Positions 8,368 through 13,432 of a DNA stretch of 64,000 bases are shown here, in pieces. The DNA is from an uncultured delta proteobacterium (GTDB lineage Bacteria; Desulfobacterota; Desulfobacteria; Desulfobacterales; JAFDCJ01), in assembly GCA_963769935.1 (NCBI GenBank), contig CAVYNY010000022.1, positions 32,001 through 96,000 on the forward strand, in the 5' to 3' direction. Both the position numbers and the translations under genes were made by a program. The notes below the pieces were generated by a model. The model was not told where the DNA came from, searched no databases, and saw nothing but the letters and a program-made list of their open reading frames with translations. Position 1 is the first letter of the stretch. Every line of letters begins with the position of its first letter.

Positions 8368-9138
8368 TCATTCCCGGGTGTCCTCGGGTGTCAGTTCATC
8401 CGGCGGCGTCATCGGTACGTTGTCCGACAGGGAGGTGTAGGCATCCACCTGCTCATCCTCACCGTCCATCATGATATCTTTTTCAAGCTTTTCCGATATG
8501 GGCGCGGGAGTCCGTTCCCGGCGTTCCCAAGGCTGGCGGTCGATTTTTATATCGTCAACGGTTTCGTCGAAGTCCAGTTTGTCGTTGATGATTTCGAGCA
8601 ATATTTCATGCTCCGCATTGCTGGGAAGCACGCCGCTCAGGTATACGACACCGTCCTCGCAGGTGATGTCGAGTTCCTCCATATCCACCCGACCGTCCTC
8701 CTGCAGCGCATCATGAATGGTTTCCTGCATATCATCGTCGGTCAGCGCTTCTTTGTCCAGCGAGACCGCAGGCGACTCAATTCCTCCTTGGGCAAAAGAT
8801 TCCCTCATGCCGGCACACGGAACACAGTATCTGGCCCAGGGTACCACCTGCAGACGCTTGACGGAAATGGGCCTGCGGCAGGCTTCGCATTGGCCGTATC
8901 TGCCTTCATCCATTTTAGTCAGGGCATGGTCGATTGCGCGAAGCTCAGCCTGACCCCGTTCATCCAGCTGCGCCAATTCGCGGGACAGGGTTTCCTTGCT
9001 GGCGGTTTCTTCGAGCTCTTTTTCCGGCTCGTGCAGGGCCTCCCAGGAGGTATTGACCGTGCGCCGAAACTCAAAGATGTCCCTGCGGCGATCCAGCAAA
9101 TTTTCCCTGAGCGCCCTGATGTCTTTTTTGCTTAGCAT
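8368..9138 (-). CDS. TraR/DksA C4 zinc-finger protein fused to BON-like domain
   Basis: Coiled coil + YGQCEAC..RL.VVPWARYCVPC; then IHDALQEDGRVD..ITCEDGVVYLSG BON-like segment; GGAGG RBS. Confidence 0.82.
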   Translation of the reverse strand: MLSKKDIRALRENLLDRRRDIFEFRRTVNTSWEALHEPEKELEETASKETLSRELAQLDERGQAELRAIDHALTKMDEGRYGQCEACRRPISVKRLQVVPWARYCVPCAGMRESFAQGGIESPAVSLDKEALTDDDMQETIHDALQEDGRVDMEELDITCEDGVVYLSGVLPSNAEHEILLEIINDKLDFDETVDDIKIDRQPWERRERTPAPISEKLEKDIMMDGEDEQVDAYTSLSDNVPMTPPDELTPEDTRE

Positions 9139-11620: not shown

Positions 11621-11693
11621 TGAACACGGTCATGTTTGGCATGAAATGGAACTGCCCTGATTGGCCTAAAATAAAATGGGTGTCGAAAATATT

Positions 11694-11715
11694 GTATGGG
11701 GTGAAGACTGTATTT
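11694..11715 (-). promoter_or_regulatory. 22-bp regulon box upstream of methyltransferase
   Basis: Minus strand AAATACAGTCTTCACCCCATAC; TATTTT 20 nt downstream. Confidence 0.7.
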
Positions 11716-12294
11716 TGGCATCGCCAAACCCTGATAAGCCGGCCGCAGCACAGGGGAGAATGAAAACCTGGGCGCGCGGAGAAGCGAAAATACCCTTTAC
11801 CGGACAATTGGAGAGATATTCCTATATTCCTATCAATCAGGTTGAGCCGTATGAAAAACGCGGATTAGGCGGCGTAAGACCGCTGGCCTGGTATTATCCG
11901 TTGCCGGGAGGGGCCTGGTGGCGCAGGCGGATGGGCGGCTATCCGGAATATTCGACCGAGGCCCCGGTCCGAGTATTTGGCAGGTACGGTGAATTTTTAA
12001 AGCAATTACATGATGCACAGTATTTACCGGGCCTTCCACGGCGTCTATATTTCATCAGATCCTGAAAACGCTGCGGTGGTGCTAAGCGACCCCAATCCGT
12101 GAATCAGCAGACGGAAGCAGTTGCGTCTAAAGGCCCGGGGCAGCCGTCGCAAAGAAAATCTGATTGTCGCTTCCATTTATTTAGCGCGTTGCTTGCCGGG
12201 CGCGGGAAGGTCCAGACGGCGATTTCAGGAATGAAGGTCGATATCGGATCGACGGCAGGGTCTGCTAATATGACTTCTAAGGGAGGTAACTAAA

Positions 12295-12861
12295 ATGCAG
12301 GAAACTAAAATAAATTGGCTAAACGATTATGAGGAAGGCTACGGACGTGCCCGCGAGGAAAAGAAGCCGCTGTTTCTCGACTTTTTCAAAGACGGGTGAA
12401 ATGGCTGCGCCAAATTGGGTGCCGTGACGTACCCGGACAGACAGGTCGCAGCCCTGCTCAACGAAAATTTTGTTCCCGTCCAAGTCAACATCGAAAAGGT
12501 TGCTAAACTGGCGGATGAATTTCAGGCTCTCTGGACCCCCAATTTGAATGTGATCGATGGCCGTCAAAAGCGGGTATACTGGGTTGAGGGTTGGCTGCCG
12601 CCGTCCGAATTTGCGGCCATGCTGGGCGTTGCGCAGGGACACTATTTTCTGCGGGGCAAAAAATACACGGAAGCCGCACCGCTTTTCAAGGCGGTGTTTG
12701 AACAGAATCCCCGCAGCCAATTCGCCCCGGAAGCTCTGTATTACAGGGGCGTCAGCCGCTATTTGAACTCTCATAAAGTCGACGAACTCAAGGAAGACTG
12801 GATCATGCTGCAGCGCTTTTATCCTCAGAGCGCCTGGAGCCTGCGTTCCAACATACTGTGA
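12295..12861 (+). CDS. Thioredoxin-like selenoprotein (UxxC) with C-terminal TPR-like region, 188 aa
   Basis: GGAGG RBS; MQETKINWLNDYEEGYGRAREEKKPLFLDFFKDG-TGA(12397-12399)-NGCAKLGAVTYPD in frame with ORF 12415..12861; hairpin just after the UGA. Confidence 0.88.
12415..12436 (+). promoter_or_regulatory. Candidate bacterial SECIS hairpin
   Basis: TTGGGTGC-CGTGAC-GTACCCGG stem-loop with G-containing loop, starting 16 nt after the in-frame UGA. Confidence 0.55.
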
Positions 12862-13069: not shown

Positions 13070-13432
13070 ATGAACCAAAGGGATTCAAATTACTTTAAAA
13101 GACGACTCCGGCAATGGCTGGAGTCGCTGAAGCAGCAGGCCGGCAACACTGTCAGCTATTTCAGGCAATACGACGAGCGTTCAGCGGACCCGCTGGATCA
13201 GGCAACCCTCGAATACGAACGCAATTTTGCGCTTCGAATTCACAACAGAGAGGATTTGCTTATCAGGAAAATCAAGCAATCCTTGCGGGATATCGAAGAC
13301 GGCGTATACGGGTTCTGTGAGGCGTGCGGCAGCCCGATCGGCGTAAAAAGATTAAAAGTCCGTCCAGTTGCCCGCTATTGTATCGAATGTAAGACCGTGG
13401 CCGAAAAAAAGGAGCGGGTTTTTGGCCTTTGA
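13070..13432 (+). CDS. dksA: RNA polymerase-binding transcription factor DksA family
   Basis: DPLDQA (DxxDxA) coiled-coil tip; CEAC..RLKVRPVARYCIEC. Confidence 0.88.
   Translation: MNQRDSNYFKRRLRQWLESLKQQAGNTVSYFRQYDERSADPLDQATLEYERNFALRIHNREDLLIRKIKQSLRDIEDGVYGFCEACGSPIGVKRLKVRPVARYCIECKTVAEKKERVFGL

What the first reader, a model, noticed from the sequence alone, without database searches (positions are those of the whole stretch)
12295..12861. Hidden selenoprotein: thioredoxin fold with UxxC plus TPR-like tail
Seen: a strong RBS and ATG at 12295 give a Trx-like N-terminus (INWLNDYEEG..AREEKKPLFLDFF). An in-frame TGA at 12397 sits exactly at the first Cys position of the redox motif (G-U-N-G-C), followed by a SECIS-like hairpin 16 nt downstream. 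The ORF track truncates the gene to 148 aa. Established: UGA recoding to Sec in CxxC-type redox motifs is common in deltaproteobacteria. Inference: the host encodes selA/B/C/D.
Basis: partly seen in the sequence, partly recalled or inferred. Interest (0 to 1): 0.7.

Follow-up and report, generated by a model that had tools for sequence, protein, structure and literature searches.

The report
Known-family selenocysteine thioredoxin with TPR tail
A gene that annotation software cuts at an internal TGA stop is one 188-codon thioredoxin-plus-TPR gene whose TGA is very likely read as selenocysteine; it belongs to an already catalogued family of predicted selenoproteins and likely reduces disulfides in partner proteins, so it is a real but ordinary find.

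Summary
Observation confirmed. RBS, ATG 12295, in-frame TGA 12397-12399 (U35 of U-N-G-C) and a hairpin starting 16 nt later are all there. TGA stands at this codon in 86 of 93 related loci (2 Cys, 5 unplaceable). 42 of 44 full-length homologs have Cys there. The codons under the hairpin show no synonymous change in 22 close relatives, and 66 of 73 distinct loci pass a bacterial-SECIS test (control 87 of 1585). The host has tRNA-Sec, selB and two selD. Its selA is frameshifted in the assembly, but the three extra bases are missing from near-identical short-read contigs. The gene is not new in kind. By hand comparison it is about 32% identical along its whole length to WP_011366075.1, the representative of the catalogued 'thiol:disulfide interchange protein' selenoprotein family (PF13098, UxxC), reported in Geobacter and Syntrophus by 2006. 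I found no experimental study of its function. Best guess: a cytoplasmic selenium-dependent disulfide reductase whose TPR helices recruit clients; a CnoX-like chaperedoxin role is the main rival. NCBIfam has no model for it, and all 103 close database homologs are truncated.

The parts
12282..12287 (+). Shine-Dalgarno site GGAGGT, 7 nt before the ATG
   Evidence: Sequence. An SD-like word precedes the upstream start in 64 of 69 distinct TGA loci that have such a start.
12295..12861 (+). Whole gene, 188 aa (about 21.9 kDa), thioredoxin fold plus TPR-like helices; no long hydrophobic stretch (max 19-residue hydropathy 0.72), so likely cytoplasmic
   Evidence: AlphaFold2 model pLDDT 95.9, pTM 0.90.
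12295..12624 (+). Thioredoxin-like domain (about residues 1-110) with U35-N-G-C38 at the start of helix 36-45 and the W80-T-P82 motif before strand 83-87 (the cis-Pro position, from knowledge of the fold)
   Evidence: Pfam Thioredoxin_2 47.8 bits, Thioredoxin_7 44.6, Thioredox_DsbH 40.3, all over the cut-off of 27; DSSP; DsbD-gamma and thioredoxin structural hits.
12397..12399 (+). In-frame TGA = residue 35, very likely selenocysteine
   Evidence: TGA in 86 of 93 loci; Cys in 42 of 44 full-length homologs.
12415..12436 (+). Bacterial SECIS hairpin: 7-8 bp stem, loop CGUGAC at 12423-12428, 23 nt after the TGA
   Evidence: codons +7 to +11 show no synonymous change in 22 relatives; covariation above 500 of 500 shuffles and above all slid controls.
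12625..12858 (+). TPR-like helical tail (helices 103-120, 124-137, 144-159, 162-175, 180-185), most like CpoB/YbgF and BamD repeats
   Evidence: TPR_16 E 7e-4, below cut-off; TIGR02795 YbgF 30.7 bits vs cut-off 90.1; PDB 6g5s and 2xev; model.

Best explanation
The gene encodes one 188-aa thioredoxin-plus-TPR protein whose in-frame TGA is very likely read as selenocysteine through the hairpin right behind it, and the protein likely works as a cytoplasmic disulfide reductase for partner proteins that its TPR helices are predicted to bind. Shown: the open frame on both sides of the TGA, conservation of TGA or Cys at this place, the constrained hairpin, and the host's Sec genes. Inferred from established Sec biology: SelB binds the SECIS loop and delivers Sec-tRNA(Sec). 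Inferred from thioredoxin chemistry: the U35 selenolate attacks a disulfide or oxidised cysteine of a client, C38 resolves the mixed bond to a selenenyl-sulfide, and a cellular reductase (unidentified) recycles it. Least supported: the TPR tail selects the clients. I put the Sec reading alone at about 0.95 and the full functional model at about 0.6.
For: TGA at codon 35 in 86 of 93 loci, duplicates included (73 distinct), plus 9 of 16 further loci. CxxC in 40 and CxxT in 2 of 44 full-length homologs. Upstream of the TGA, residues are kept with free synonymous change, so that part is translated. Under the hairpin, Gly GGT 22/22, Ala GCC 18/18, Val GTG 22/22, Thr ACG 22/22 and Tyr TAC 22/22, while Gly-1, Gly+2, Val+16 and Thr+46 use all four codons. 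A simplified bSECIS test (G in loop positions 1-2, loop 16-37 nt after the codon, perfect stem of -6 kcal/mol or better) is passed by 66 of 73 loci against 87 of 1585 control positions in the same genes (model from PMC13188914 section 5). Pair counts: 76.8% paired, 17 cells with double changes, 0 of 500 shuffles as high, slid controls 22-54%. Host: tRNA-Sec(UCA) 75.4 bits, selB 382.6 bits, two selD each with a TGA, selA over cut-off. The three extra bases in selA are absent from near-identical contigs: all three in X1, two in X2, one in X3. Confident thioredoxin fold with both redox residues at the helix N-terminus; they are the protein's only Cys/Sec.
Against: No experiment shows Sec insertion or activity for this protein, and my searches found none for the family. 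RNAalifold found no consensus structure on the 51-sequence alignment; a soil clade places its hairpin about 5 nt nearer the TGA. The hairpin's energy alone is not significant. Co-occurrence with selA (76 of 80) and selB (78 of 80) is uninformative because 371 of 401 phylum genomes have selA. Four TGA-bearing genomes of genus g53 and G187 show no selA. No conserved neighbourhood points to a client or reductase. Some homologs have lost one or both redox residues (CxxS, SxxS, ExxS), so not every member is a two-residue oxidoreductase.
Confidence: 0.6

Rival explanations
1. It is a selenoprotein, but works mainly as a chaperedoxin like CnoX/YbbN: the TPR helices hold unfolding proteins and U35 shields their cysteines as mixed selenenyl-sulfides until a foldase takes over.
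For: Same domain order as CnoX (thioredoxin then TPR; PMC8129009 passages). Foldseek ranks 3qdn_A and YbbN 3qou 2nd and 4th. Caulobacter CnoX combines CxxC oxidoreductase and holdase activity.
Against: The YbbN matches are loose (TMq 0.44, rmsd 10.7-11.5 A, 14% identity). CnoX is 284 aa with ten TPR helices, this protein 188 aa with five. Its thioredoxin domain is of the DsbD-gamma/Thioredoxin_7 type and its repeats are CpoB/YbgF-like. No chaperone gene showed up among the recurrent neighbour clusters I read.
Confidence: 0.25
2. The TGA is read through as cysteine by a selC*/selB* system rather than as selenocysteine.
For: Such systems exist in Desulfobacterales (PMC5389517 passages). In genus g53, whose four genomes carry the TGA form, a second UCA tRNA directly upstream of a second selB is present in three of four, and no selA was found.
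Against: The host assembly (96.7% complete) has one UCA tRNA of canonical tRNA-Sec type and one selB, with no match to the g53 second tRNA.
Confidence: 0.04
3. The TGA is a real stop (pseudogene, sequencing error, or a split gene whose 148-aa downstream part starts on its own).
For: Databases list only the truncated forms for close relatives: none of 103 hits covers more than 78% of the query. Codon +6 is ATG in 30 and TTG in 10 of 73 loci.
Against: The stop is TGA in all 86 loci that have a stop there, never TAA or TAG. Codon +6 is CTG, CTC or TTA in 33 of 73 loci, and an SD-like word precedes it in only 2 of 69. The upstream 34 codons hold the first strands of the fold and are under coding constraint. 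A short-read contig confirms the TGA.
Confidence: 0.02
4. The gene is a selenoprotein gene by descent, but this host can no longer make Sec because its selA is broken.
For: selA is split by frameshifts in the assembly.
Against: Three single extra bases (net in frame) are missing from near-identical short-read contigs. Both EF-Tu copies are broken too, which marks an indel-prone assembly. selB, selC and both selD are intact.
Confidence: 0.02

Closest known systems
'Thiol:disulfide interchange protein' selenoprotein family (PF13098, UxxC; representative WP_011366075.1; listed for Geobacter metallireducens, G. uraniumreducens and Syntrophus aciditrophicus in PMC1794560)
   Same: Same length class (190 vs 188 aa), one Sec in DFF..G-U-x-G-C, then A-V-x-Y-P-D, W-T-P, A-P-E-A-x-Y..G-V and Y-P-x-S-x-W motifs. 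About 59 of 183 positions identical by hand count against the sequence shown in the deep-Sep supplement. By hand that sequence is 114 of 190 identical to the product of L139, which BLASTP puts at 35% identity to the query (E 1e-40).
   Different: The query sits in a separate, well-supported subclade (9 rows, SH-aLRT 99; quick tree) with DFFK[DE]G before the Sec. The catalogue calls the family 'predicted' and never mentions TPR (0 hits for the term in PMC13188914).
CnoX/YbbN chaperedoxin
   Same: N-terminal thioredoxin domain fused to a C-terminal TPR region.
   Different: 284 aa with two five-helix TPR subdomains versus 188 aa with five helices; SxxC/CxxC rather than UxxC; 14% identity and rmsd over 10 A.
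DsbD gamma domain / DsbH / DUF255 thioredoxin-likes
   Same: Closest thioredoxin-domain matches by sequence and fold (2kuc, 2fwe, 1uc7, 3ira, 3f9u).
   Different: Here the domain stands without membrane or export parts, carries Sec and is followed by TPR helices; NCBIfam DsbD 28.8 bits vs cut-off 330.
Other Trx7-type selenoproteins (TsoB, Trx7/PDZ, VPGUxxT types 1 and 2)
   Same: Weak matches over the first 65-72 residues.
   Different: All far below their cut-offs (20.7-29.6 bits vs 275-805), with other lengths and motifs.

Membership tests
Bacterial selenoprotein (UGA/bSECIS) | In-frame UGA aligned to a conserved Cys in homologs | tested here: met
   TGA 86 of 93 loci; Cys 42 of 44 full-length homologs.
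Bacterial selenoprotein (UGA/bSECIS) | SECIS hairpin with G at loop position 1-2, loop 3-9 nt, 16-37 nt after UGA | tested here: met
   Loop CGUGAC at +23, 8-bp helix at -9.4 kcal/mol; 66 of 73 loci vs 87 of 1585 controls; synonymous freeze. RNAalifold consensus was empty.
Bacterial selenoprotein (UGA/bSECIS) | selA, selB, selC, selD in the genome | tested here: met
   selA frameshifts contradicted by short-read contigs.
Bacterial selenoprotein (UGA/bSECIS) | Sec actually present in the protein | not testable with these tools
   Needs 75Se labelling or mass spectrometry.
'Thiol:disulfide interchange protein' selenoprotein family (WP_011366075.1) | PF13098 domain, one Sec, UxxC motif (Table 1 of PMC13188914) | tested here: met
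   PF13098 47.8 bits vs cut-off 27; single U35 in UxxC; table row seen.
'Thiol:disulfide interchange protein' selenoprotein family (WP_011366075.1) | Full-length homology to the representative, same architecture | tested here: met
   Hand comparison only, not a program run: about 59 of 183 identical, with one gap, against the sequence printed; bridged by L139.
CnoX/YbbN chaperedoxin | Thioredoxin domain plus a ten-helix, two-subdomain TPR region, about 284 aa | tested here: not met
   Five helices, 188 aa, loose structural match.
CnoX/YbbN chaperedoxin | Holdase activity and hand-over to GroEL/ES | not testable with these tools
   Biochemistry needed.
selC*/selB* UGA-to-Cys system in the host | Second UCA tRNA with a second selB | tested here: not met
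   One UCA tRNA among 51 tRNAs, one selB; assembly 96.7% complete.
NCBIfam named selenoprotein models (TsoB, Trx7/PDZ, VPGUxxT) | Score over the curated cut-off | tested here: not met
   Query far below all cut-offs; best E-value among 32 aligned members 1e-17.

The most novel reading that the evidence does not exclude
The family is a selenocysteine-based miniature chaperedoxin, the anaerobes' counterpart of CnoX, present in about a fifth of the genomes of this phylum and in soil bacteria yet missed because gene callers cut it. In one genus the same UGA/SECIS may be decoded as cysteine by selC*/selB* without SelA.
Probability: 0.2. Interest if true: 0.55.

Novelty: new member of a known kind. 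Interest (0 to 1): 0.22.

Why it matters
Mainly an annotation fix. The redox site is missing from every close database record (103 of 103), and no NCBIfam model reaches its cut-off, so members carry names such as BamD, TolA-binding or HemY. The family is far commoner than the three sequences known in 2006: 84 of 401 phylum genomes hold a homolog, most with the frame closing at the Sec codon. I found no functional study, so testing one member would assign a function to a widespread selenoprotein and show whether a TPR module can steer a Sec thioredoxin to its clients.

Tried and rejected
RNAalifold on 51 SECIS regions gave no consensus. Hairpin z-scores were not significant. Co-occurrence with selA/selB was dropped as evidence once the phylum base rate proved to be 371 of 401; that test covered 80 of 86 genomes, and four of the six left out turned out to lack selA. 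Neighbourhood clustering showed only lineage-specific neighbours (at most 8 loci per cluster), no operon. Promoter/terminator scan: nothing clearly beyond shuffles (4 vs 1.7 and 4 vs 2.9). Plasmid tblastn: one weak thioredoxin hit. Earlier scan findings: none. The search of 1.84 billion cluster representatives was not run, so distribution outside this phylum and the metagenome hits is not mapped. The tree is the quick one, not the careful search: it needs three Sec/Cys changes, with four Cys sequences nested beside Sec form L137 (SH-aLRT 99), but without a root I claim no direction. RNA contigs in run X10 (97% identical, spanning 12345-12575) come from a relative, and 35 difference rows were not shown, so they are only a hint of expression. 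Leptospirillum TFP2 and the Geobacter multiheme selenoenzyme paper proved irrelevant. No complex prediction was run: there is no candidate partner.

Full report
Observation. The window has GGAGGT at 12282-12287, ATG at 12295, an in-frame TGA at 12397-12399 and the final TGA at 12859-12861. Read through, this gives 188 aa with U35-N-G-C38. The ORF list shows only the 148-aa piece from TTG 12415. A hairpin GGGUGC-CGUGAC-GUACCC starts 16 nt after the TGA, with its loop 23 nt after it. Its folding energy alone is not exceptional (z -0.19 to -1.97). A short-read contig covering 12200-12614 has no difference from the window (run X1, possibly the source sample).

The TGA is conserved. Among 93 loci (own genome, relatives, 57 metagenome loci, 30 phylum loci; duplicates included) the codon is TGA in 86, TGC in 2 and unplaceable in 5; 73 TGA loci are distinct. 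Sixteen further loci gave 9 TGA, 6 without a stop (CxxC or CxxS) and 1 partial. In a phylum sample, 84 of 401 genomes hold a homolog, and most frames close about 11 codons before the VTYP motif. None of 103 close database proteins covers more than 78% of the query. A profile search found 44 full-length relatives among 59 new hits: CxxC 40, CxxT 2, SxxS 1, ExxS 1. The closest named relatives are Desulfobacterales.

The hairpin behaves as a SECIS. In 22 close relatives the five codons under it never change synonymously (GGT 22/22, GCC 18/18, GTG 22/22, ACG 22/22, TAC 22/22), while neighbouring four-fold sites use all codons and the region before the TGA keeps its residues with free synonymous change. 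My simplified version of the bSECIS model (PMC13188914 section 5, read whole) is met at -6 kcal/mol or better by 66 of 73 loci against 87 of 1585 control positions. On 51 aligned regions, 76.8% of cells pair, with 17 double changes; no shuffle of 500 reached the percentage paired or the covariation score, and slid helices pair 22-54% (relatedness inflates such numbers). Against this, RNAalifold returned no consensus; a soil clade has its loop at +18 rather than +23. An internal start is unlikely: codon +6 is CTG, CTC or TTA in 33 of 73 loci and has an SD-like word in 2 of 69, against 64 of 69 for the upstream start.

Host machinery. tRNA-Sec(UCA) at C3:6328-6421 (75.4 bits), selB 382.6 bits and two selD each with its own TGA are present. 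selA is frameshifted, but three single extra bases are absent from near-identical contigs (X1 all three, X2 two, X3 one), and both EF-Tu copies are also broken, so these are likely assembly indels. ARAGORN finds one UCA tRNA and a normal tRNA-Trp(CCA) among 51 tRNAs; there is no selC*-like tRNA and no second selB. Among homolog-bearing genomes, selA was found in 76 of 80 and selB in 78 of 80. The one lacking both, the complete G411, has a CxxS form without TGA. This co-occurrence carries little weight, since 371 of 401 phylum genomes have selA. Of six genomes left out of those two calls, four (genus g53, 61-79% complete) have the TGA form but no selA found.

Structure. Pfam gives Thioredoxin_2, Thioredoxin_7 and Thioredox_DsbH over cut-off and TPR_16 below it. 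No NCBIfam model reaches its cut-off for the query, and 32 aligned members match only weakly. The AlphaFold2 model (pLDDT 95.9, pTM 0.90) has a thioredoxin core with U35 at the start of helix 36-45, then five helices from 103 to 185. Sequence hits in the PDB are DsbD-gamma and thioredoxins for the front and CpoB/YbgF/BamD for the tail. Foldseek adds YbbN/CnoX, loosely (TMq 0.44, rmsd over 10 A). U35 and C38 are the only Cys/Sec, and there is no long hydrophobic stretch. No conserved neighbourhood exists.

Mechanism. Shown: one conserved reading frame across a TGA that replaces a catalytic Cys, a constrained SECIS-type hairpin, and the decoding genes. Inferred from established Sec biology: SelB reads the hairpin and inserts Sec. 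Inferred from thioredoxin chemistry: U35 attacks a client disulfide, C38 resolves it, and an unidentified reductase recycles the selenenyl-sulfide. Speculative: the TPR helices choose the clients. The main rival is a CnoX-like holdase role (PMC8129009 passages). Cys insertion by selC* (PMC5389517 passages), a true stop and a Sec-deficient host are each at 0.04 or below.

Comparison with what is known. [quoted passage not shown] PMC1794560 (passages) counts three such sequences, in Syntrophus aciditrophicus, Geobacter metallireducens and G. uraniumreducens. PMC1976440 (passages) lists the family as known. The supplement of PMC12013277 (search passages in files 1 and 3) prints the representative. 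It has 190 aa and the same motifs end to end, including the helical tail. By hand it is about 59 of 183 identical to the query and 114 of 190 to the product of L139, which BLASTP aligns to the query at 35% (E 1e-40). File 1 holds another predicted member with the same layout. The query is therefore a new member of a catalogued family, in its own subclade. It is not CnoX by size or TPR anatomy. Three full-text searches turned up no functional study and no mention of the TPR part; most subscription papers are outside that library.

Verdict. Real, well supported and ordinary: new member of a known kind, interest 0.22. The remaining value is the untested function, the missing family model, and the side lead in genus g53.

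Noticed in passing
G068, G109, G145, G178 (genus g53, family f52); L156-L159, L162-L173: All four genomes carry the TGA form of this family, but selA was found in 0 of 4 (TIGR00474 and PF03841) against 371 of 401 in the phylum. Three have a second, shorter UCA tRNA directly upstream of a second selB, the selC*/selB* layout of PMC5389517, which reports a full Sec apparatus in isolate genomes with selC*. Possibly a lineage that reads UGA/SECIS as Cys only; the genomes are 61-79% complete, so this is a lead.
   Followed up: partly
G187 (C64:4022-4444; C51): Estimated 100% complete (170 contigs), has the TGA form, selB and selD, but neither selA nor tRNA-Sec was found.
   Followed up: partly
G000 genome (ARAGORN): The host also has a tRNA-Pyl (CUA), so it may use both selenocysteine and pyrrolysine.
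   Followed up: no
G000:C22:678107-679262 (selA); C22:721234-722131 and 736650-737823 (EF-Tu): Frameshifts in selA and both EF-Tu copies mark an indel-prone assembly; broken genes elsewhere in this genome should be distrusted.
   Followed up: partly
G000:C20:157619-158545 and C7:116160-117080: Two selD genes, each with its own in-frame TGA and a hairpin behind it.
   Followed up: partly
L089-L091, L093, L095, L097-L104, L106-L108: A divergent clade from other metagenomes (motif SAAPA-U-GAC, 35-39% identity) keeps the TGA with a different hairpin whose loop lies at +18; host lineage and Sec machinery not determined.
   Followed up: no
window 11676-12065 (+): The ORF upstream shares 39 residues (64% identity) with a longer, possibly PRC-barrel-like ORF beside the homolog in L062 (family name recalled, not tested); it looks like a remnant, with no Pfam or NCBIfam hit.
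   Followed up: partly
window 13070-13432 (+) and 8368-9138 (-): DksA just downstream (TIGR02420 126.6 bits, over cut-off); a second DksA-like zinc-finger protein with a C-terminal extension lies upstream (read, not tested).
   Followed up: no
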